From Escherichia phage HK446, in sequence record NC_019714.1: 39,026 nucleotides of DNA; one strand, given 5' to 3'. A model generated the notes under the pieces. It was not told the origin of the DNA and ran no database searches. It worked only from the letters and a program-made list of their open reading frames with translations. The position numbers were made by a program, and so were the translations under genes. Below are positions 7,423 to 35,251 of the stretch, in pieces. Numbering within the stretch: position 1 is the first letter of the stretch; every line of letters begins with the position of its first letter.

Positions 7423-7809
7423 ATGTCGCAAACTTTAAAACAATTAGCCATGGCGAAAATGGCTGGCTTTCGCCATAAGACGGTCGTTGTCCCTGAGTGG
7501 GAAGGTGTCAAAGTGGTTCTCCGTGAGCCGTCAGGTGAAGCCTGGCTGCGCTGGCAGGAGGTGGTGAAAGGGGGGGGCGACGATGAAAATGTGTCGGTAT
7601 CGGAAAAGGCGCACCGTAATCTTTGCGCTGACGTGGTGCTCTTCATTGACGTTCTGTGTGACACCGATAAGCAACCGGTATTCAGCGTAGACGAAGAAGA
7701 GCAGGTGCGTGAAATTTACGGGCCCGTGCACTCACGTCTGCTCAAACAGGCGCTTGACCTGATCAACAATGCGGACGAAGCGCGGGAAAAGTCTCAACCC
7801 CCGGCGTAA
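7423..7809 (+). CDS. Tail assembly chaperone (gpG-like)
   Basis: 128-aa ORF between major tail and tape measure genes; followed by an overlapping -1 frame ORF. Confidence 0.7.
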   Translation: MSQTLKQLAMAKMAGFRHKTVVVPEWEGVKVVLREPSGEAWLRWQEVVKGGGDDENVSVSEKAHRNLCADVVLFIDVLCDTDKQPVFSVDEEEQVREIYGPVHSRLLKQALDLINNADEAREKSQPPA

Positions 7810-8096
7810 AGTTTCTGATGTCGCTTGCGCTCCGGATGGGGCGCACGCTCTCAGAGCTTCGGCAGAATATGACGGCAAGCGAGCTTCTGATGTGGATTGA
7901 GTACGACAGGCAAAGCCCGGTTGGCGATATTCGCGGTGATATCCATGCAGCGCAGATTGTCTCTGCCATCTACGGCTCGCAGGGGGCAAAAGTACCGCTG
8001 GACGATGCGATCCTGCGCTGGGGTGGTGATGAGCAATCAGAACCGAAGGACCCGTTTGCAGGGCTTGAGGCGGCACTTACAGCTGCGACACAATAA
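7423..8096 (+). CDS. Tail assembly chaperone G-T fusion via putative -1 programmed frameshift
   Basis: The -1 frame is open from about 7758 to 8096, overlapping the G 3' end; candidate slip site GGAAAAG at about 7785-7791. Confidence 0.5.
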
Positions 8097-8153
8097 TTGC
8101 TTCACATGCCTTCAATGTAGCGATACGCTCTTTCCTTAAGTAAAGGAGGCGTT

Positions 8154-8342
8154 ATGGAACCACTGGTAGTAGTGTTTGGAATATTCGGCTGGCTGATAAA
8201 TCTAATTGTGATTTTTTATTTATTACGGTTTAGCACAAGGGCAAATGAACAAGTTGAAGCCCTTAAAGAGATAAATAAAAAGCAAGATGCGCAAATAGAT
8301 TTATTAATACAAGTCGCTCACCAAAGAAAAGACAGTTTATAA
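8154..8342 (+). CDS. Small single-pass membrane protein, YebO-like (HK97 gp15-like superinfection exclusion moron)
   Basis: 62-aa ORF with AAGGAGG SD, N-terminal hydrophobic helix then RFSTRANEQVE motif; sits between chaperone and tape measure genes and is followed by its own terminator. Confidence 0.7.
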   Translation: MEPLVVVFGIFGWLINLIVIFYLLRFSTRANEQVEALKEINKKQDAQIDLLIQVAHQRKDSL

Positions 8343-8349
8343 CTCACGA

Positions 8350-8372
8350 CCCGCTATCAAGCGGGTTTTTTT
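8350..8372 (+). terminator. Intrinsic terminator after YebO-like moron
   Basis: CCCGCT-atca-AGCGGG stem followed by T7. Confidence 0.7.
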
Positions 8373-8384
8373 ATGGGTGAAAAT

Positions 8385-11300
8385 ATGGCTACGTTGCGCG
8401 AACTGATCATCAAAATATCTGCAAACTCTCAGTCATTCCAGTCTGAAATTTCTCGTGCTTCAAGAATGGGGAATGACTATTACCGGGTAATGCAGACTGG
8501 AGGACGCCAATCGGCCGCAGCTTCGCGTGAAACTCAGCGTGCCTTGGCTGAGGTAACTAGTCAAATAAACACCGCGAAGGCCTCAGCACTGGGAATGGCT
8601 GGTGCATTTGCTGGAGCATTTGCGACTGGTCATCTTATATCGCTGGCCGATGAATGGAGCTCTGTTAATGCCAGGCTAAAGCAGGCTTCCCAGTCGTCAG
8701 ATGATTTCACGGAGTCCCAGCGGGCGCTGATGGATATTAGCCAGCGAACCGGAACCGCCTTCTCTGATAATGCGAGTCTTTTTGCGCGTTCAGCCGCTTC
8801 TATGCGTGAATATGGCTACAGTTCAGAAGAGGTTCTGAAGGTAACCGAGGCTATATCAACAGGGCTTAAGCTGTCAGGCGCAAGCGCGTCTGAAGCGAGT
8901 TCGGTAATCACGCAGTTCAGCCAGGCTCTGGCGCAGGGTGTTCTTCGAGGCGAGGAATTTAACTCCGTCAACGAAAACGGTGATCGAGTTATCCGTGCTC
9001 TTGCCGCAGGGATGGGTGTAGCTCGTAAAGATCTGAAGGCAATGGCCGATCAGGGGATGCTAACCGCAGATAAAGTTGTCCCGGCCCTGATAAGTCAACT
9101 TGGCACTATGCGTGGTGAATTTGAGGCAATGCCGCAGACCGTTTCTGCTGCCACGACGAAAGTCGAAAATGCTTTCATGGCATGGGTAGGTGGCGCTAAT
9201 GAAGCCACTGGTGCGACAAGTACTCTTGTTGCCGTATTGAATACGGTTTCTGACAATATAGACACTGTGGCTACGGCTGCCGGAGCTTTGGCTGCGATAG
9301 GTGGAGCTCGCTATCTTGGAGGGATGTTTGGCGATCTTGGGAACCAGACGGCGCAATTAATAGATGCCAGAAAGAACGAAATTGCGCTCGCAGCTGCAAG
9401 GGCTGAATCTGCTACCCAATCACAACGCAAGGCCGCCGCCGATGCTATTGCTGCTGAGCGAGCTTACCAGCTTGCTCAGTCAGAACTTGTGCTGGCAAAG
9501 AATACTAATGCTGAGGCTACTGCCACTCAAAATGCCATATCCAAGCGCCGGGCAATGATTACAGCAAATGCGGCACTGGTACAGTCAAACAGAGCCGTTG
9601 CAGCCTCTCAGCAGGCACTTAACTCTGCAACATCAGTGCTGGGGCTTGTAAAAACTGGCGCTACAGGCCTGCTGGGTCTTGTCGGCGGGTTGCCTGGGCT
9701 GTTGATGCTGGGGGCCGGTGCCTGGTACACGATGTATCAAAACCAGGAGCAGGCACGTCGCTCTGCCCAGGAATACGCCAGTCAAATCGACGAAATACGA
9801 GAAAAAACTTCCCGCATGTCTTTGTCTGAAACAGACGACAATAGGGGGAGAACTGTTGGTGCTCTGGTAGAGCAAAATCGTTTGGTTGATGAGCAAGCCA
9901 AAAAGGTTGGTGAGCTGAAGAACCAGATCGACGATTTGAATGCATCGCGTGGAAAACCGGGCATTACCAGCGAGAACGATGCAAATATACTGAGAGCGAT
10001 AGCTATCGTTACGGATCAACTTGCTGTTGAAGAGGGAAAATTAAATGACATGCGAGATAAATCTCGCGGCATACAGCAGGCTCTCGAAGAAATTGAGCGA
10101 CGTCGCAATGATTTAATACGCGAACAAGCCTGGCGACAGAATGCGGTATATCAGTCGATGATCATGATGAATGGTCAGCATACTGAATTTAACCGTCTGC
10201 TGGGGCTGGGAAATCAGCTATTAATGGCTCGGCAAGGGCTGGCTAACGTCCCGCTCAGACTTCCGCAGGCCGATCTCGACAAAAAGCAAACCGATGCCCT
10301 CGAAAAGAGCCGCCGGGATCTGGAGTTGTCACGCCTGAAGGGTGAAGCAAAAGAGCGCCTGCGTCTGAGTTATGCAGCCGATGACCTGGGGTTAACCAGT
10401 GATCCGCAATTCCAGACAGGCCGTCAGGAGTTGATTAATAACGGCCTTGCTGAATGGCGGAATAATGAGGCCAACAAACCTAAGGCGAAGGGCGGTAAAA
10501 CCGAAGGCGAGAAAACCGAGGATGTGTATAAGCGCCTTATCAAGCAGCAAAAAGAGCAGATTGCCCTGCAAGGCCAGAATACTGAACTGGCGAAGGTTAA
10601 ATACCAGGTCAGCCAGGGCGAACTTGCTTCTCTGACAGAAGCCCAGAAAAAGACGGTATTGCAGAATGCTGCGCTGATTGACCAGGTTAAATTACGTGAG
10701 CAACTGCGAAATTACGAAGCCAACCTTGCCGACAGTAACGCCAGCGCCCGCGCAGCCAATGAAGCTCAACTGCTGGGCTACGGGCAGGGAACCAGGTTTC
10801 GTGAAAGACTTCAGGAGCAGTTCAATCTGCGTAAGGATTTTGAGCAGAAGAATACCGATCTTCTCCGCCAGCGTCAGGCTGGTGAAATCGACGAGACGTT
10901 CTATCAGCAGGGGCTGGCACTTAATAAGCGCTACCTCGAAGAGCGCCTGCGCGACCAGGATGGATATTACGCAGCTTCTGATGCGCAGCGTGACGACTGG
11001 ATGACGGGACTGTCTGAGGGTTATGCGAACTGGGTGGACGAAGCTACTGATTATTCTTCCATGGCCGCTGACGGCATGAAGCAGGCCATGGGTGGCGCGG
11101 TCACCACGATCACCGACATGCTCAATGGCAACGTTGACAGCTGGAAGGACTGGGGCGTGAGCGTACTGAAGATCATCCAGAACGTTCTGGTGAACATGGC
11201 TGTTGCTAACGGCGTCAGTTCAATTGGTTCTCTCTTCAGCTTTGGCGCATCTTCCGCCGCTGCCGCCAGTAGCGGTACTGCAATTCAGAACGCTGGCGCG

Positions 11301-11701: not shown

Positions 11702-12040
11702 ATGGCTATCGAAACTTTCACCTGGTGCCCACGACTTAACGCTGAGGCAGATATAAATTTCCGCGTCAGGAAAGCACAGTTTGGCGATGGATATGAGCAG
11801 GTTTCAGGGGATGGATTGAACACCAGAACCCAGCAATGGACGCTCAACTTCACTGGCAACGAAACCTACATTTCTGCCATTAAATCTTTTCTCGACAGGC
11901 ATGAAGGAACGAAAGCCTTTCAATGGAAGCCACCGCTCGAACCTTTGGGTTTGTATCGTTGCGAAACTTATAAACCCACCGGGCTTGGCGCGGGGAAATT
12001 CAACCTTGAAGCAACATTCATCCAGGCATTTAAACCATGA
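11702..12040 (+). CDS. Minor tail protein M
   Basis: 112-aa ORF directly after tape measure; lambda M-like size and position. Confidence 0.75.
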   Translation: MAIETFTWCPRLNAEADINFRVRKAQFGDGYEQVSGDGLNTRTQQWTLNFTGNETYISAIKSFLDRHEGTKAFQWKPPLEPLGLYRCETYKPTGLGAGKFNLEATFIQAFKP

Positions 12041-12795
12041 GCTTAAACGCAGATTATCAGAAGCTGGAATCCGGAAACGATGTTCGTCTGATTGAGGTGG
12101 ACGGTTCTTCCTTTGGGCTAACGGAAGTTCTCCGCTTTCACAATTACAGCATTCCCCACACAGAAGCGGAAATCATCGCCGCTGGTGGGGATGAGTCCAA
12201 GCTTCCGGCGAAACCAATCTGGTGGCAGGGAAATGAATACGCCGCCTGGCCGTATCAGCTGGAAGGCCTGGAAAAATCAACCAGTGGGAGCAATGCAACG
12301 CCATCACTGACGGTTGCGAACATCGAAAGCTCTATTTCTGCCATGTGTCTTGCGTATGACGATCTGCTGCAGGCGAAAGTCACTATTCACGACACAAAAG
12401 AGAAATATCTCGATGCCAGGAATTTCGCAGACGGCAACCCCACAGCAGACCCGACTCAGGAAAAGCTGCAGGTCTGGTATATCGACGGGAAAACTGGCGA
12501 GCTTGCCGGTGAAACCGTTGAATTTGTTCTGTCCAGCCCGATGGACCTGCATGGGCAAATGATCCCGACGCGACAGCTTCATTCCCTGTGTACCTGGTGC
12601 ATCCGGAATAAATATCGTACCGGCGACGGCTGTGACTATGCCGGCACCCGCTATTTCGACAAAAACAACAACCCGGTAAGCGATCCGTCGCTGGATGAAT
12701 GCAACGGCACGCTGACGGCCTGCAAACTCCGATTCGGCGAAAATAACGAACTCTCGTTTGGTGGCTTCCCGGGCACGTCTTTGATCAGGAGTTGA
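12037..12795 (+). CDS. Minor tail protein L
   Basis: 252-aa ORF with C-terminal Cys cluster (CTWC...C...C) as in lambda gpL. Confidence 0.8.
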   Translation: MSLNADYQKLESGNDVRLIEVDGSSFGLTEVLRFHNYSIPHTEAEIIAAGGDESKLPAKPIWWQGNEYAAWPYQLEGLEKSTSGSNATPSLTVANIESSISAMCLAYDDLLQAKVTIHDTKEKYLDARNFADGNPTADPTQEKLQVWYIDGKTGELAGETVEFVLSSPMDLHGQMIPTRQLHSLCTWCIRNKYRTGDGCDYAGTRYFDKNNNPVSDPSLDECNGTLTACKLRFGENNELSFGGFPGTSLIRS

Positions 12796-12796
12796 T

Positions 12797-13507
12797 ATGC
12801 GTCAGAAAACCATCGATGCGATTATGGCGCATGCCGCCGCTGAATATCCTCGTGAGTGCTGCGGTGTGGTGGCGCAAAAAAGCCGTGTTGAACGTTATTT
12901 TCCTTGCCGGAATCTTGCCGCTGCGCCGAAGGAAAATTTTGTCCTCTGCCCGGAAGATTACGCAGCTGCTGAGGACTGGGGTACGGTGATCGCCATCGTT
13001 CACAGTCACCCTGACGCCACTACGCAGCCGAGCGAACTGGATAAAGCGCAATGCGACGCAACGCTTTTACCCTGGCATATTGTGAGCTGGCCGGAGGGGG
13101 ATTTACGCACCATCCAGCCGCGCGGAGAACTGCCACTGCTGGAGCGTCCGTTTGTGCTTGGACACTTCGACTGCTGGGGGCTGGTAATGAGCTATTTCCG
13201 GCAAACGCATGGTATCGAGCTCCACGATTACCGGGTGGATTATCCCTGGTGGGAAAACGCCTATCCGGACAATTTTTATCAGGATTGCTGGTATGAATGC
13301 GGATTCCGTGAATTCGACGGACCACCGAAACCCGGTGATATGGTGATCATGCAGGTCCAGGCCGATAAGTGGAATCACGCGGGAATTCTGCTGGAGGGAA
13401 ATATGCTGCTGCACCACCTGTACGGACATCTGAGCCAGCGCGTGCCGTATGGTGGCTACTGGCAGGAAAGGACGATGAAGATTCTTAGACATCAGAATTT
13501 TATTTAA
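12797..13507 (+). CDS. Tail assembly protein K (JAB/MPN plus NlpC/P60 domains)
   Basis: HSHP JAMM-like motif (AIVHSHPDATT) and a Cys...His pair (FDCWGLV ... NHAGILL) characteristic of gpK. Confidence 0.8.
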   Translation: MRQKTIDAIMAHAAAEYPRECCGVVAQKSRVERYFPCRNLAAAPKENFVLCPEDYAAAEDWGTVIAIVHSHPDATTQPSELDKAQCDATLLPWHIVSWPEGDLRTIQPRGELPLLERPFVLGHFDCWGLVMSYFRQTHGIELHDYRVDYPWWENAYPDNFYQDCWYECGFREFDGPPKPGDMVIMQVQADKWNHAGILLEGNMLLHHLYGHLSQRVPYGGYWQERTMKILRHQNFI

Positions 13508-13554
13508 CAAACTGTCACTGATACTATCGTGTAGTACACGGCAAGGAGAACGAT

Positions 13555-13779
13555 ATGTATACAGTTGGGTTTGGTTGGATCTTCGTCGGTATTTTTATTG
13601 GGTTAATTCTCTGGTTTTTCATCAACCGCGCCAGCGTCAGAGCGAACAGGCAGGTTGAATTACTTGAGTCTATCGACCAGAAATTATCAAAAATAGTAGA
13701 TCCAAACTTCGAGGCAAATAACAAAGACCAGTCGAAAGAAAACTACCTTGAAGAAGCAAGGAAAAAAGCTGGGCTTTGA
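13555..13779 (+). CDS. Small single-pass membrane protein, YebO-like (second paralog)
   Basis: 74-aa ORF with AAGGAGA SD; hydrophobic N-terminus then INRASVRANRQVELLESI, clearly paralogous to the 8154-8342 product. Confidence 0.65.
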   Translation: MYTVGFGWIFVGIFIGLILWFFINRASVRANRQVELLESIDQKLSKIVDPNFEANNKDQSKENYLEEARKKAGL

Positions 13780-13794
13780 GAGCGTAAATTAATA

Positions 13795-13817
13795 AACCAC
13801 CTACGGGTGGTTTTTTT
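13795..13817 (+). terminator. Intrinsic terminator after second YebO-like gene
   Basis: AACCACC-tacg-GGTGGTT stem followed by T7. Confidence 0.7.
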
Positions 13818-13828
13818 ATGGGGGCAGC

Positions 13829-14437
13829 ATGCAAGAGGTAATGACAAGAATTGAGCTAAGTGGCGTGCTAGCTAAGACATATGGAAGGGTTCATCACCGT
13901 CTGGTTCGCACTACTGCTGAAGCCATTAATGCACTCGCGAAAACCATCAATGGATTCGAGAAATTCTTAAACACAAGCAAAGCCCGAGGGCTGACGTATG
14001 CCGTTTATAGAGATAAAAAGAATATTGGCGTTGATGATCTCGGCTTTCCCGTCACCGGCGAAGTGATCCGGATTGTCCCTGTAGTAATAGGGAGTAAAAA
14101 GGCTGGTCTTTTGCAGACGATCTTGGGGGCCGTGCTTATTACTGCTGCTGTGTTGACTGGCCCCGGCGGTATTGGCGCTGCTTTCGCTGCTGGTGGATTG
14201 ACGGGGTTTGCTGCTGCCACTGGTGCCTCGTTGGTCCTCGGTGGGGTTATTCAGCTGCTTTCACCGCAGCCATCAGGCATAGCCAGTAAACAAAGCGCAG
14301 ATAACCGTGCATCGTATGCGTTTGGCGGGGTAACCAACACTGCAGCGCAAGGCTACCCGGTGCCTCTGCTTTATGGTAAGCGTCGAATCGGCGGAGCGAT
14401 TATTTCTGCCGGAATTTATGTCGAAGATCAGCAGTAG
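13829..14437 (+). CDS. Tail assembly protein I
   Basis: 202-aa ORF between K and J with Gly/Ala-rich hydrophobic C-terminal half, as in lambda gpI. Confidence 0.75.
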   Translation: MQEVMTRIELSGVLAKTYGRVHHRLVRTTAEAINALAKTINGFEKFLNTSKARGLTYAVYRDKKNIGVDDLGFPVTGEVIRIVPVVIGSKKAGLLQTILGAVLITAAVLTGPGGIGAAFAAGGLTGFAAATGASLVLGGVIQLLSPQPSGIASKQSADNRASYAFGGVTNTAAQGYPVPLLYGKRRIGGAIISAGIYVEDQQ

Positions 14438-14455
14438 ATAACTAACCTTTTTTCT

Positions 14456-14478
14456 GGCCACCTTCGGGTGGCTTTTTT
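14456..14478 (+). terminator. Terminator-like hairpin between I and J
   Basis: GCCACC-ttcg-GGTGGC stem followed by T6. Confidence 0.5.
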
Positions 14479-14489
14479 ATGGGCGCAAT

Positions 14490-17400
14490 ATGGCTACAGA
14501 TAAAGTGTTAAAAGGCCGCAAGGGCGGCAGCTCAAGTTCCCGAACCCCTACCGAACAGCCTGATGATCTGCAATCTGTAGCGAAGGCAAAGATCCTCGTT
14601 GCGCTTGGGGAAGGGGAGTTTGCTGGACAGCTCACCGGGAAGGATATCTACCTGGACGGAACAGCGCTGGAGAATGCTGACGGCTCCCAAAACTTCAGCG
14701 GGGTAACGTGGGAGTTTCGCGCGGGAACGCAGGCGCAAAAATATATTCAGGGTATTCCCGGTACCGAAAACGAGATCAGCGTAGGAACTGAGGTATCAAG
14801 TGCCACAGCCTGGACGCGCACGTTTACCAATACGCAGCTTTCAGCAGTTCGCCTGCGTCTTAAATGGCCCTCGCTTTTCAAACAGGAAGACGACGGCGAT
14901 CTGGTGGGTTACTCGGTCAATTATGCGATTGACCTGCAGACGGACGGCGGCACATGGCAGACGGTACTCAATACCAGCGTGACCGGCAAAACGACGTCTG
15001 GTTATGAGCGCAGCCACCGTATCGATTTACCGCAGGCTGGCAGCACATGGACAATACGTCTGCGTAAGATTACCTCTGACGCCAACAGCGCGAAGATCGG
15101 CGACACGATGATGCTGCAGAGCTTCACCGAGGTGATTGATGCCAAACTGCGCTACCCGAACACCGCGCTGCTCTACGTCGAATTCGACTCAAGCCAGTTC
15201 AACGGCTCTATTCCTCAAATTTCATGCGAACCGCGCGGCCGCGTTATCCGCGTTCCAGATACCTACGACCCTGAAACCCGCACTTATAGCGGTACATGGA
15301 CCGGTGCGTTTAAGTGGGCATGGACGGATAACCCTGCGTGGATTTTTTACGACCTGGTTGTTTCTGACCGGTTTGGCCTCGGGCACCGTTTGACCGCTGC
15401 GAATATTGATAAATGGACTCTTTATCAGGTTGCTCAGTATTGTGATCAGATGGTACCAGACGGCAAAGGGGGCAACGGTACAGAACCACGCTATACCTGC
15501 AACGTGTACATTCAGGACCGGAACGACGCCTACACAGTCCTGCGTGATTTTGCCGCTATCTTCCGTGGCATGACCTACTGGGGCGGGGATCAGATTGTGG
15601 CCCTGGCTGACATGCCGCGCGATGTTGATTACAGCTATACGCGCGCTAACGTTGTTGGCGGTCGCTTCACCTATTCGAGCAGCACCACGAAAAGCCGCTA
15701 CACCACAGCGCTGGTTTCATGGTCAGATCCGGGTAACGCTTATGCCGACGCAATGGAGCCGGTATTTGAGCAGGCGCTGGTGGCGCGATACGGCTTCAAT
15801 CAGCTGGAAATGACAGCCATCGGCTGCACCAGGCAGTCAGAGGCGAACCGAAAGGGGCGCTGGGGTATTCTCACCAACAACAAGGATCGCGTTGTTTCGT
15901 TTGATGTCGGGCTGGACGGAAACATTCCGCAGCCGGGCTACATCATCGCCGTGGCAGACGAGCTGCTTTCCGGAAAGGTTATGGGCGGCCGCATCAGCGC
16001 CGTTAACGGTCGCGTTATCAAACTTGACCGCGTAGCTGATGCAGCACCAGGTGATCGCCTTATTCTCAACCTGCCTTCCGGAGCGTCGCAGAGCAGGACC
16101 ATTCAGGCCGTGAACGGGGAATCAGTCACAGTCACCACGGCATACAGTGAGACGCCACAGGCCGAAGCTGTTTGGGTTGTTGAATCTGACGAGCTTTACG
16201 CGCAGCAGTATCGTGTTGTCAGCGTCTCCGACAACGGTGATGGCACTTTCTCAATCACCGGCGCATGGCACGACCCGGATAAATATGCCCGCATCGATAC
16301 CGGAGCCATCATTGACCAGCGGCCGGTGAGCGTGATCCCGCCTGGTAACCAGTCGCCGCCTGCGAACATCGTGATCAGCTCGTTTTCCGTGGTGCAGCAA
16401 AATATCAGCGTCGAAACGATGCGCGTGAGCTGGGACCAGGCGCAGAACGCTATCGCCTATGAAGCGCAATGGCGCCGCAACGACGGGAACTGGGTTAACG
16501 TGCCGCGCACCTCCACCACGTCATTCGACGTCCCGGGGATTTATGCCGGGCGCTACCTGGTGCGGGTGCGCGCAATCAATGCCGCAGAAATTTCATCCGG
16601 ATGGGGCTATTCAGAAGAGAAAACGCTGACGGGTAAAGTGGGCAATCCACCGAAGCCGGTTGGCTTCATCGCTTCTGAAAATGTGGTTTTCGGCATCGAG
16701 CTGAACTGGGGATTCCCGGCGAATACCGACGACACGCTGAAGACGGAAATTCAGTACAGCCTGACCGGAACCGAGGACGATGCGATGCTGCTGGCCGATG
16801 TGCCTTATCCGCAGCGCAAATATCAGCAGATGGGCCTCAAGGCTGGGCAGATTTTCTGGTACCGCGCTCAGCTGGTGGACCGCAGCGGCAACGAATCAGG
16901 GTACACAGAATGGGTGCGAGGACAGGCCAGCATCGATGTTTCCGACATCACAGATGTGATCCTGGAGGACATGAAAGGCTCCGATACGTTCAAAGACCTG
17001 ATCGAGAACGCTGTGGACAGCAATGAAAAAATTGCTGGCATGGCTGACGAAATCAAAAACCATGCCGACGAACTCGAGCAGCAGGCGAAAGACATCCAGG
17101 AAAACGCTGACGGGCTGGCCCAGGCCGAAGTGAAGATCGACGAGATTTCTGTGTCGATGGATGGCATGACGGGAGGCGTGAAGAACTCGGCAATCGCGAT
17201 TATCCAGAATGGGCTGGCGCAGGTTGTCAGTCGTCGTTCCCAGACCGCGACAAACGCAGGGAACAGCGCCAGCATTGACCGTATCGACACGACCATAGCC
17301 GACACCAGCTCGGCGGTTGCTCGCGCGCTGGTGACGCTGGATGCTTCAGCTGGTGGGAATATCTCCAACTCTACCGATCTCACTGAAACTCTGGCCGATT

Positions 17401-17945
17401 TCACGCAGGCATCGGCGACAAAAATTAACACCCTGACTGTTAAATCTGGCGAAAACAGTGCCGCGATAAATGTCAACGCACAGGCTATCGCAGATGTAAA
17501 CGGTAACCTAAGTGCGATGTACAACATCAAGGTTGGTGTCTCCAGCAATGGACAGTATTACGCCGCGGGGATGGGTATCGGCGTGGAGAATACGCCATCC
17601 GGCATGCAGTCGCAGGTTATCTTCCTGGCTGATCGCTTCGCCGTCACCACGGCGGCCGGAAATAGCGTGGCTTTGCCGTTCGTGATCCAGAACGGGCAGA
17701 CATTCATCCGGGCCAGTTTCATCCAGGACGGCACTATCAGCAACGCAAAGATTGGTAATTTTATCCAGTCGAACAATTATGTTGCTGGTTCTGCTGGCTG
17801 GAAGCTTGATAAAGGGGGGACGTTTGAGAACTACGGTTCGACTGCTGGTGAGGGAGCCATGAAACTGACAAATCAGACGATCAGCGTCAAAGATGGCAGT
17901 AATGTTCTTAGGGTGCAGGTTGGCCGATTAACGGGAGTATTCTGA
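14490..17945 (+). CDS. Host specificity protein J (central tail fiber)
   Basis: 1151-aa ORF with segments recognisably similar to lambda J (e.g. TCNVYIQDRNDAYTVLRDF vs lambda ITCNAYLTTQRKAWDVLSDF). Confidence 0.9.
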   Translation: MATDKVLKGRKGGSSSSRTPTEQPDDLQSVAKAKILVALGEGEFAGQLTGKDIYLDGTALENADGSQNFSGVTWEFRAGTQAQKYIQGIPGTENEISVGTEVSSATAWTRTFTNTQLSAVRLRLKWPSLFKQEDDGDLVGYSVNYAIDLQTDGGTWQTVLNTSVTGKTTSGYERSHRIDLPQAGSTWTIRLRKITSDANSAKIGDTMMLQSFTEVIDAKLRYPNTALLYVEFDSSQFNGSIPQISCEPRGRVIRVPDTYDPETRTYSGTWTGAFKWAWTDNPAWIFYDLVVSDRFGLGHRLTAANIDKWTLYQVAQYCDQMVPDGKGGNGTEPRYTCNVYIQDRNDAYTVLRDFAAIFRGMTYWGGDQIVALADMPRDVDYSYTRANVVGGRFTYSSSTTKSRYTTALVSWSDPGNAYADAMEPVFEQALVARYGFNQLEMTAIGCTRQSEANRKGRWGILTNNKDRVVSFDVGLDGNIPQPGYIIAVADELLSGKVMGGRISAVNGRVIKLDRVADAAPGDRLILNLPSGASQSRTIQAVNGESVTVTTAYSETPQAEAVWVVESDELYAQQYRVVSVSDNGDGTFSITGAWHDPDKYARIDTGAIIDQRPVSVIPPGNQSPPANIVISSFSVVQQNISVETMRVSWDQAQNAIAYEAQWRRNDGNWVNVPRTSTTSFDVPGIYAGRYLVRVRAINAAEISSGWGYSEEKTLTGKVGNPPKPVGFIASENVVFGIELNWGFPANTDDTLKTEIQYSLTGTEDDAMLLADVPYPQRKYQQMGLKAGQIFWYRAQLVDRSGNESGYTEWVRGQASIDVSDITDVILEDMKGSDTFKDLIENAVDSNEKIAGMADEIKNHADELEQQAKDIQENADGLAQAEVKIDEISVSMDGMTGGVKNSAIAIIQNGLAQVVSRRSQTATNAGNSASIDRIDTTIADTSSAVARALVTLDASAGGNISNSTDLTETLADFTQASATKINTLTVKSGENSAAINVNAQAIADVNGNLSAMYNIKVGVSSNGQYYAAGMGIGVENTPSGMQSQVIFLADRFAVTTAAGNSVALPFVIQNGQTFIRASFIQDGTISNAKIGNFIQSNNYVAGSAGWKLDKGGTFENYGSTAGEGAMKLTNQTISVKDGSNVLRVQVGRLTGVF

Positions 17946-35095: not shown

Positions 35096-35170
35096 TGGGT
35101 CAGTCGTATAAAGGTCATTACGGAAGGCTGTTAACCTTCTTATCGTGGTTCGAGTCCACGCTGTCCCGCC
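35096..35170 (+). tRNA. tRNA-like gene, anticodon GTT (Asn) if folded canonically
   Basis: Hand-folded cloverleaf: T-arm CGTGG-TTCGAGT-CCACG, anticodon arm GAAGG-CTGTTAA-CCTTC, 3' CCA; one mismatch each in acceptor and D stems by my reading. Confidence 0.45.
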
Positions 35171-35175
35171 AAATA

Positions 35176-35251
35176 TGCTGGTTTAGCTCCAATGGTAGAG
35201 CAGTCGCCTTGTAAGCGAATGGGTAGCGGTTCAAGTCCGTTAACCAGCACC
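35176..35251 (+). tRNA. tRNA gene, anticodon TGT (Thr)
   Basis: Hand-folded cloverleaf: acceptor GCTGGTT/AACCAGC perfect, D-arm GCTC-CAATGGTA-GAGC, anticodon loop CTTGTAA, T-loop TTCAAGT, 3' ACCA. Confidence 0.65.

What the first reader, a model, noticed from the sequence alone, without database searches (positions are those of the whole stretch)
13555..13817. Second YebO-like paralog at the K/I junction: a duplicated moron cassette
The 74-aa product shares the TM-helix-plus-R-x-S-x-RAN-x-QVE-x-L architecture with the 8154 product (RFSTRANEQVEALKEI versus RASVRANRQVELLESI). It also carries its own SD and a near-identical terminator type. Two divergent copies of one small membrane-protein family inside a single tail operon is unusual and may mean two exclusion specificities or a heteromeric pair.
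Basis: seen in the sequence. Interest (0 to 1): 0.55.

Follow-up and report, generated by a model that had tools for sequence, protein, structure and literature searches.

The report
Known YebO-like tail-operon moron (HK022 gp20)
The small gene between tail genes K and I is real and related to the small gene upstream of the tape-measure gene, but it is the already catalogued "gp20" add-on gene of HK97/HK022-type coliphages, a relative of the known injection-blocking protein gp15 whose own function has never been tested.

Summary
Window 13555-13779 (+) encodes a 74-aa single-pass membrane protein with its own Shine-Dalgarno (SD) site and intrinsic terminator. It is homologous to the 62-aa product of 8154-8342: 43% identity over 44 aa (E 5e-9), both above the Pfam YebO cut-off, same PHROG.

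Neither gene is new. The window is an HK97-like lambdoid phage. The 8154 gene is HK97 gp15, a published superinfection-exclusion protein. The 13555 gene is 100% identical to HK022 gp20, annotated "moron gene product". At least five other sequenced phages and a few E. coli prophages carry both.

"Duplicated cassette" is not supported. The coding DNA does not align, and each protein is closer to relatives elsewhere than to the other. A Klebsiella phage protein combines the features that gp15 and gp20 each keep only in part.

New comparative points:
- Phage YebO-like genes always sit in lambda-like tail operons, at the T/H, H/M or K/I junction.
- Most carry a conserved extended -10-like motif 25-33 nt before the ATG.
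- They are under strong purifying selection.

The most likely role of gp20 is a prophage-expressed blocker of DNA injection with a specificity different from gp15. This is inferred, not shown. An obligate gp15/gp20 pair is unlikely, because each occurs alone.

The parts
13519..13527 (+). Extended -10-like promoter element TGATACTAT, 27 nt upstream of the gp20 start codon (putative moron promoter).
   Evidence: Read from the sequence. TGnTAnnnT lies 24-34 nt upstream of the ATG in 12 of 17 diverged YebO-like cassettes, against a mean of 0.43 and a maximum of 5 in 5000 shuffles. Function was not tested. The simple -35/-10 consensus scan found nothing here.
13543..13548 (+). Shine-Dalgarno sequence AAGGAG, 6 nt before the ATG.
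   Evidence: Sequence. Conserved in related cassettes.
13555..13779 (+). CDS of 74 aa: YebO-family single-pass membrane protein, identical to HK022 gp20 (moron product).
   Evidence: ORF. Pfam YebO 47.7 bits against a cut-off of 27. PHROG 5031. 100% identical over residues 1-74 to the IMG/VR copy of the 40751-bp HK022 genome. HK022 annotation 'gp20, moron gene product'. dN/dS 0.06. The AF2 model has helix 2-48, a break at DPNF, and helix 53-71, with pLDDT 72.
13794..13819 (+). Intrinsic terminator (8-bp stem, 4-nt loop, T7) that runs into TTTTTTATGGG just before the gene I start (13829).
   Evidence: (-12.1 kcal/mol, z -2.75). Annotated as a putative terminator in the HK97 record.
8143..8149 (+). 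Shine-Dalgarno sequence AAGGAGG of the gp15 gene.
   Evidence: Sequence.
8154..8342 (+). CDS of 62 aa: HK97 gp15 orthologue (1 aa different), the paralogue at the T/H junction and a published superinfection-exclusion protein.
   Evidence: ORF. DNA is 99.8% identical to HK97. HK97 annotation 'Gp15, moron product'. Translation of the HK97 copy. Pfam YebO 38.7 bits. Function from PMC3594210.
8348..8377 (+). Intrinsic terminator of the gp15 moron plus the TTTTTTATGGG tail, just before the tape-measure gene H (HK97-equivalent start 8386).
   Evidence: (-14.9 kcal/mol, z -3.3).
14456..14483 (+). Third terminator of the same type at the I/J junction, with no ORF attached. It is 86% identical over 35 nt to the K/I terminator module.
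   Evidence: family D3.

Best explanation
Window 13555-13779 is the intact orthologue of HK022 gp20. It is a self-contained moron inserted between tail genes K and I of an HK97-like lambdoid phage.

It encodes a 74-aa YebO-family protein with four parts:
- an uncharged N-terminal transmembrane helix;
- a strongly conserved, positively charged juxtamembrane helix (NRASVRANRQVELLESI), inferred to be cytoplasmic from the positive-inside rule;
- a variable linker;
- a conserved C-terminal helix (YLEEARKKAGL).

The cassette carries a probable extended -10 promoter, its own SD site and an intrinsic terminator. It could therefore be transcribed from the repressed prophage. Q-antiterminated late transcription would read through it (inference from lambda biology).

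By homology with its paralogue gp15, it most likely sits in the inner membrane of the lysogen. gp15 blocks DNA injection by HK97 and HK75 in a way that depends on the incoming tape-measure protein and on PtsG. gp20 probably blocks genome injection by incoming siphophages by acting on a host inner-membrane partner.

Its specificity is expected to differ from gp15, because it lacks gp15's middle helix and has a C-terminal motif that gp15 lacks.

What is shown: gene reality, family membership, moron anatomy, distribution and selection. What is inferred: prophage expression, topology, exclusion function and target.
For: Homology and family:
- gp20 is homologous to gp15 and belongs to the YebO family.
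- It is identical to HK022 gp20, annotated 'moron gene product'.

Moron anatomy:
- K/I, T/H and H/M overlap or abut in lambda.
- The cassette shows a G+C dip, a terminator and an SD site.
- A conserved TGnTAnnnT lies 25-33 nt upstream in 12 of 17 lineages, against 0.43 expected.

Selection:
- dN/dS is 0.06.
- The core and C-terminal motifs are invariant across Escherichia, Enterobacter, Serratia and Pantoea relatives, while synonymous sites are saturated.

Genomic context:
- In about 45 loci, every phage-type YebO gene lies in a lambda/HK97-like tail operon, next to the tape-measure or tip genes at T/H, H/M or K/I.
- This ties the family to tail and injection biology.

Published gp15 function:
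- gp15 is expressed from the prophage, is an inner-membrane protein, and blocks HK97/HK75 DNA entry. Sensitivity is set by the tail tube/tape-measure region (PMC3594210; PMC10883804).
- It acts via the TMP-PtsG complex (review PMC12939059).

Independence of gp20 from gp15:
- gp20 occurs alone in many phages.
Against: - No experiment on gp20 was found in the searchable literature.
- HK97 tolerates an amber codon in gene 20, so the gene is dispensable for phage growth, and its loss has no noted phenotype.
- The core of gp20 is closer to chromosomal YebO than to gp15. YebO over-expression or deletion had no effect on HK97 (PMC3594210).
- gp20 lacks the KQDAQIDLLIQVAH helix of gp15.
- In E. coli phages the identical gp20 sits beside very different tape-measure proteins, so no cis-linked target is evident.
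- There is no match in PADLOC.
- The promoter is only a conserved motif.
Confidence: 0.5

Rival explanations
1. gp20 is a lysogenic-conversion factor that mimics or competes with the host protein YebO. It would act on the same conserved host partner to alter envelope or transport physiology, with no role in phage exclusion.
For: - The juxtamembrane core is 73% identical to E. coli YebO.
- That core is nearly invariant across genera, as expected for binding a conserved host protein rather than a fast-evolving phage protein.
- Most of the protein is predicted to be cytoplasmic, away from an incoming tail (inference from charge distribution).
- There is no PADLOC hit.
Against: - The gene sits exclusively inside tail operons next to tape-measure or tip genes, at three different junctions. 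A general physiology gene would not be expected to show this.
- The only characterised phage member, gp15, is an exclusion protein that itself works through a host membrane protein, so a conserved host partner is also compatible with exclusion.
- The function of YebO is unknown, so the proposed mimicry has no defined phenotype.
Confidence: 0.22
2. gp20 acts mainly during lytic growth as part of the late tail transcript. It might prevent progeny or secondary phages from injecting into already infected or lysing cells, or modulate the membrane step used by the phage's own tape-measure protein.
For: - The gene lies inside the late tail operon on the same strand.
- It is followed by a terminator-plus-restart module that keeps downstream tail genes translated.
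- It is always adjacent to tail genes.
Against: - The cassette has its own conserved promoter-like element and terminator, the hallmark of prophage-expressed morons.
- HK97 grows normally with an amber codon in gene 20.
- Lambda and many relatives lack any gene at these junctions.
Confidence: 0.12
3. gp15 and gp20 form an obligate heteromeric pair. They would be sub-functionalised halves of a three-module ancestor and would work only together.
For: - A Klebsiella phage T/H-junction protein (77 aa) and longer relatives contain the core, the gp15-type middle helix and the gp20-type C-terminal motif.
- gp15 keeps only the core plus the middle helix.
- gp20 keeps only the core plus the C-terminal motif.
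- Both genes are intact in the window.
Against: - gp20 occurs without gp15 in HK022, mEp235, HK542, mEp506, ECP1 and in all Serratia, Pantoea and metagenomic loci.
- gp15-type genes occur alone in Klebsiella and Buttiauxella prophages.
- gp15 excludes phages in HK97, where gene 20 is an amber pseudogene.
Confidence: 0.05
4. The ORF is a decaying or non-functional remnant, or a chance ORF.
For: - HK97 carries a premature amber codon in it.
- The cassette is rare, found in 7 of 5426 complete E. coli genomes.
Against: - dN/dS is 0.06.
- The reading frame is intact and the motifs are invariant across four or more genera.
- The Pfam match is above the cut-off.
- The SD site and promoter-like motif are conserved.
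Confidence: 0.02

Closest known systems
HK022 gp20 (NP_037680, 'moron gene product'; Juhala et al. 2000 genome annotation)
   Same: The protein sequence is identical over residues 1-74. The position between K and I is the same, and so are the SD site and terminator.
   Different: Nothing of substance differs; this is the same gene in another mosaic HK97-like genome. In HK97 itself the gene carries CAG->TAG at codon 33 and is not annotated.
HK97 gp15 superinfection-exclusion protein (Cumby et al. 2012, 2015)
   Same: - Same Pfam and PHROG family.
- An N-terminal TM helix followed by the R-x-S-x-RAN-x-Q-V-E-x-L motif.
- A moron in the same tail operon with the same terminator type.
- It is present in this window at 8154-8342.
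   Different: - Only 43% identity over 44 aa.
- gp15 has the KQDAQIDLLIQVAH helix and lacks the YLEEARKKAGL tail; gp20 is the reverse.
- gp15-type genes were found only at the T/H junction, whereas gp20-type genes occur at T/H, H/M or K/I.
- The gp15 cassette lacks the exact TGnTAnnnT motif.
- Exclusion is shown for gp15 and untested for gp20.
Chromosomal YebO of E. coli and other Enterobacterales (b1825, 95 aa, function unknown)
   Same: A TM helix plus the core IGLILWFFINRAS.R.N.Q.ELLE, 73% identical over 30 aa. Same Pfam family.
   Different: - YebO is longer, with a QQKRQNALLRRL helix, an acidic linker and a C-terminal ..IRLVAER/IPER tail in place of YLEEARKKAGL.
- It is encoded next to mgrB rather than in a prophage.
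- It is reported to have no effect on HK97 (PMC3594210).
Klebsiella phage T/H-junction YebO-like protein (e.g. phage P7641 XMN67898; ST147-VIM1phi7.2 QBP28426)
   Same: It is 47% identical to gp20 over the full length, including DYLEEARKKAGL, and 51% identical to gp15 including the middle helix. It is a moron with a TGnTAnnnT motif and a terminator.
   Different: It contains all three modules in one 77-aa protein and sits at the T/H junction.
Other injection-blocking membrane Sie proteins (P22 SieA, TP-J34 Ltp, Tuc2009 Sie2009)
   Same: They are prophage-expressed membrane proteins that block DNA entry after adsorption, with escape often mapping to the tape-measure or ejection proteins (PMC10883804).
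   Different: There is no sequence relationship. The resemblance is in proposed mechanism only.

Membership tests
YebO family (Pfam PF13974) | Match to the family HMM above the curated gathering score | tested here: met
   47.7 bits for gp20 and 38.7 bits for gp15, against a cut-off of 27. RefSeq calls both genes 'YebO family protein' in E. coli prophages.
YebO family (Pfam PF13974) | Single N-terminal hydrophobic helix followed by the basic juxtamembrane motif NRAS.R.N.Q.ELL | tested here: met
   Alignments A2, A4 and A5. The AF2 model gives a continuous helix over residues 2-48. The core is 73% identical to K-12 YebO.
YebO family (chromosomal YebO orthologue group) | C-terminal ..(I/F)(I/K)R(L/M)(V/I)(A/P)ER tail and a chromosomal locus beside mgrB | tested here: not met
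   gp20 ends in YLEEARKKAGL. It lies in a phage tail operon, whereas K-12 yebO lies between yobF and mgrB. It is therefore a family member but not a YebO orthologue.
Moron (Juhala/Hendrix definition) | Extra DNA between two genes that are adjacent in related phages | tested here: met
   Lambda K and I overlap, as do T/H and H/M. The window has a 321-bp insert between K and I.
Moron (Juhala/Hendrix definition) | Base composition different from the flanking genes | tested here: met
   G+C is 0.40 at 13500-13800, against 0.52-0.58 in the flanks. There is a matching dip to 0.36 at 8200-8400.
Moron (Juhala/Hendrix definition) | Own factor-independent terminator | tested here: met
   Hairpin 13794-13813 plus T7, -12.1 kcal/mol. 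Annotated as a putative terminator in HK97. This is sequence-level evidence only.
Moron (Juhala/Hendrix definition) | Own promoter that allows expression from the repressed prophage | tested here: inconclusive
   There is no -35/-10 consensus hit. However, the extended -10-like TGATACTAT (13519-13527) is conserved in position in 12 of 17 lineages, against 0.43 expected. Transcription was not measured.
gp15-type superinfection-exclusion proteins | Sequence homology to HK97 gp15 | tested here: met
   43% identity over 44 aa, E 5e-9. Same PHROG 5031.
gp15-type superinfection-exclusion proteins | gp15 architecture: core plus the KQ.AQIDLLI..AH helix, encoded at the T/H junction | tested here: not met
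   gp20 lacks the middle helix and has a different C-terminus. It lies at K/I. gp15-type genes lie at T/H in all loci examined.
gp15-type superinfection-exclusion proteins | Blocks DNA injection of specific phages in a manner dependent on the tape-measure protein and PtsG | not testable with these tools
   This needs plating and injection assays. It is reported only for gp15.

The most novel reading that the evidence does not exclude
gp20-type YebO morons may be a second, widely conserved class of injection-blocking proteins. They would act through a conserved host inner-membrane partner, with a specificity distinct from gp15. HK97-type phages that carry both genes would then protect their lysogens against two sets of siphophages.

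The whole family may also be a plug-in cassette, made of an extended -10 promoter, an SD site, the ORF, a terminator and a restart site. Such a cassette could hop between the T/H, H/M and K/I junctions of lambda-like tail operons. gp15 and gp20 would be complementary reductions of a three-module ancestor that still exists in Klebsiella phages.
Probability: 0.35. Interest if true: 0.5.

Novelty: already known. Interest (0 to 1): 0.25.

Why it matters
gp15 is one of the few characterised proteins that block siphophage DNA injection at the inner membrane, and its mechanism is still unclear. gp20 is a natural, diverged paralogue in the same operon. It is more widespread than gp15 and strongly conserved across genera.

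If gp20 is also an exclusion factor, comparing the two would help in two ways. Their shared TM-plus-juxtamembrane core and their differing distal helices could show which part sets specificity. It could also identify which host membrane protein is targeted.

As it stands, the finding re-identifies a gene catalogued in 2000 and named by automatic annotation. Its value lies in a testable hypothesis and some comparative detail, not in a discovery.

Tried and rejected
- The simple sigma-70 scan found no promoter upstream of either cassette. The promoter case therefore rests on a conserved extended -10-like motif found by comparing lineages.
- PADLOC gave no hit.
- NCBIfam gave only sub-threshold noise.
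- A PDB sequence search with a family profile found nothing meaningful.
- Rfam gave nothing at either cassette.
- No fold search was run. The AF2 model is just two helices with pTM 0.34, so matches would be meaningless.
- The primary papers were not held: Cumby et al. 2012 by PMC id and Cumby et al. 2015 by DOI. Juhala et al. 2000, a subscription-journal paper, was not looked up. Whether they comment on gp15/gp20 similarity could not be checked. gp15 facts are taken from the authors' open commentary and later papers.
- Literature searches for a gp20 function returned nothing relevant. 'YebO' full-text searches are swamped by author names.
- Recent tandem or segmental duplication was considered and rejected, because the coding DNA is not alignable.
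- The antisense ORFs 13524-13724 and 13670-13834 were considered and rejected. All homology and selection signal is on the + strand.
- tblastn with gp20 masks the TM segment, so it did not join the gp15 hits. Copy number was instead determined with an HMM on six-frame ORFs.

Full report
**What is there.** The window is an HK97-like lambdoid phage of the Hendrixvirinae.
- Its tail region reads G/T (7423-8096), a 62-aa ORF (8154-8342), tape-measure gene H (to 11699), M, L (12037-12795), K (12797-13507), a 74-aa ORF (13555-13779), I (13829-14437) and J (14490-17945).
- Megablast gives 96-98% identity of the K-to-I stretch to mEpX1, HK106, mEp234, HK544, HK97 and HK022.
- The G-to-H stretch is 99.8% identical to HK97, mEpX1, HK75 and others.
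- The rest of the genome is a new mosaic of the same group.

**Check of the observation.**
- The 74-aa ORF has AAGGAG 6 nt before its ATG. It is followed by an 8-bp/4-nt-loop hairpin and a T7 run ending at 13817.
- Its product aligns with the 8154 product at 43% identity over 44 residues, E 5e-9. The alignment covers the end of the hydrophobic helix and the R-x-S-x-RAN-x-QVE-x-L motif.
- Both proteins pass the Pfam YebO gathering score, at 47.7 and 38.7 bits against 27. Both fall in PHROG 5031.
- G+C falls to 0.36-0.40 at both cassettes.

**It is a known gene.**
- The 8154 gene is HK97 gene 15, with one residue different. It is annotated 'moron product'.
- The 13555 gene is identical in protein sequence to HK022 gp20, annotated 'moron gene product'.
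- In HK97 itself the same DNA carries CAG->TAG at codon 33, and the CDS is not annotated.
- In lambda, T/H, H/M and K/I overlap, so both inserts meet the definition of a moron.
- RefSeq annotates both genes as 'YebO family protein' in the few E. coli prophages that carry them: 7 and 6 of 5426 complete genomes.
- Three strains appear in both lists. In PEC389 the two hits lie about 5.4 kb apart on the same strand.

**Not a local duplication.**
- The coding DNA of the two cassettes does not align. Only the terminator module does.
- gp20 shares 73% identity over its 30-aa core with chromosomal E. coli YebO. gp15 shares only 38% with YebO.
- A 77-aa protein at the T/H junction of Klebsiella phages is 51% identical to gp15, including the KQ.AQIDLLI..AH helix. 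It is 47% identical to gp20 over the full length, including the C-terminal DYLEEARKKAGL.
- Longer relatives show the same three modules.
- gp15 thus keeps the core plus the middle helix. gp20 keeps the core, a linker and the C-terminal motif.
- The family is small: 72 clusters at 50% identity with E <= 1e-3 among 1.84 billion representative proteins.

**Distribution.**
- I used an HMM on six-frame ORFs, and tblastn with the window's tail proteins, on about 45 loci from IMG/VR, GenBank phages, genomes and metagenomes.
- Every phage-type YebO gene lies in a lambda/HK97-like tail operon, at the T/H, H/M or K/I junction.
- gp15-type genes were always at T/H.
- Two copies in one operon occur only in the E. 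coli group with the HK97-type G/T/H module.
  - By HMM these are the window, HK75, HK633, mEpX1, HK544 and one IMG/VR contig, plus HK97 with the amber codon.
  - HK106 and mEp234 also match both cassettes at the DNA level.
- gp20 occurs alone in HK022, mEp235, HK542, mEp506, ECP1 and in all Serratia, Pantoea and metagenomic loci.
- This argues against an obligate gp15/gp20 pair. So does the published exclusion activity of gp15 in HK97, where gene 20 is an amber pseudogene.

**Gene reality and expression signals.**
- dN/dS against a relative with dS 0.74 is 0.06. In more distant relatives synonymous sites are saturated, while NRASVRANRQ(V/I)ELLESI and YLEEARKKAGL stay nearly invariant.
- The consensus -35/-10 scan finds no promoter.
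- Comparison of diverged cassettes reveals TGnTAnnnT, an extended -10-like element, 24-34 nt upstream of the start codon in 12 of 17 lineages.
- It appears at all three junction types, against 0.43 expected and a maximum of 5 in 5000 shuffles.
- In the window it is TGATACTAT at 13519-13527.
- The HK97-type gp15 cassette lacks an exact match.
- This is good comparative evidence that the cassette travels with its own promoter, but transcription was not measured.

**Structure and topology.**
- AlphaFold2 with 20 homologues gives a helix at 2-48, a break at DPNF and a second helix at 53-71. Mean pLDDT is 72.
- The N-terminal eight residues are uncharged. Three arginines follow the hydrophobic segment, so an N-out/C-in orientation with a cytoplasmic C-terminal part is inferred from the positive-inside rule.
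- Very little of the protein would then face the periplasm. This favours action through a host membrane protein rather than direct capture of an incoming tail.
- That fits the reported dependence of gp15 on PtsG (review PMC12939059; HK97 needs LamB, FkpA and PtsG).

**Mechanism proposed.**
- gp20 is most likely a prophage-expressed inner-membrane protein that interferes with genome injection by incoming siphophages.
- Its specificity probably differs from gp15, because the distal modules differ.
- The arguments are homology, moron anatomy, strict tail-operon context and strong selection.
- The counter-arguments are:
  - there is no experiment on gp20;
  - it is dispensable in HK97;
  - its core resembles YebO, which has no effect on HK97;
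  - the identical gp20 sits beside very different tape-measure proteins.
- The rivals are a YebO-mimicking conversion factor, a lytic-cycle role, an obligate heteromer and a dead gene. They are ranked in the rival list.

**Verdict.**
- The feature is an already catalogued gene, and the pair is a recurrent property of this phage group rather than an oddity.
- The 'duplication' reading is not supported.
- The modest new content is the three-module relationship, the three alternative insertion junctions, the conserved extended -10-like element and the shared terminator-restart module.

Noticed in passing
window 8367-8377, 13812-13822, 14473-14483: The 11-mer TTTTTTATGGG occurs exactly three times in the 39-kb window, against 0.03 expected. 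Each copy is the T-tract of an intrinsic terminator placed 6-8 nt (measured from the end of the 11-mer) before the start codon of the next tail gene (H, I, J). The K/I and I/J versions are 86% identical over 35 nt. Pantoea and metagenomic cassettes end in the same way (TTTTTTTATGGG or TATAGG, a few nt, then ATG). This looks like a shared 3' 'terminator plus restart' boundary of tail-operon morons, possibly a recombination microhomology.
   Followed up: partly
window 14438-14489 (I/J junction): A terminator of the moron type is present with no ORF attached. HK97 and HK022 carry other morons (gp22, and gp23 on the reverse strand) at this junction. It may be an emptied or not-yet-filled moron site.
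   Followed up: partly
L001 1359-1457 (HK97 record AF069529, about 13560-13658): HK97 gene 20 carries a CAG->TAG change at codon 33, and the CDS is absent from the GenBank annotation. The reference HK97 is therefore a natural gp20 null that still has gp15.
   Followed up: yes
L009 6278-6610 (Serratia fonticola prophage); L044 just after 8204: In Serratia and Pantoea prophages the K/I YebO-like gene is followed by a small lipoprotein gene with the signal MRNLLLAFAATTLLSGC. It hits PHROG 914 and gives only a weak N-terminal hit to Cor exclusion proteins. The K/I junction may collect several envelope or exclusion genes.
   Followed up: partly
L016 2165-2602 (- strand), IMG/VR contig with an HK97-like tail operon: At the T/H junction, where gp15 sits in the window, this relative carries an unrelated reverse-strand 145-aa ORF with a C-terminal hydrophobic helix. 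It has no family match. The T/H junction is a moron hot spot with varied cargo.
   Followed up: partly
L048-L050 about 7950-8426; proteins P0063 and P0098: These YebO-like proteins of about 154 aa carry an extra C-terminal domain of about 90 aa. They occur in more distant siphophage tail regions.
   Followed up: no
window 35097-35168 and 35177-35249 (+): Two adjacent tRNA genes are detected by Rfam near the right end of the window.
   Followed up: no
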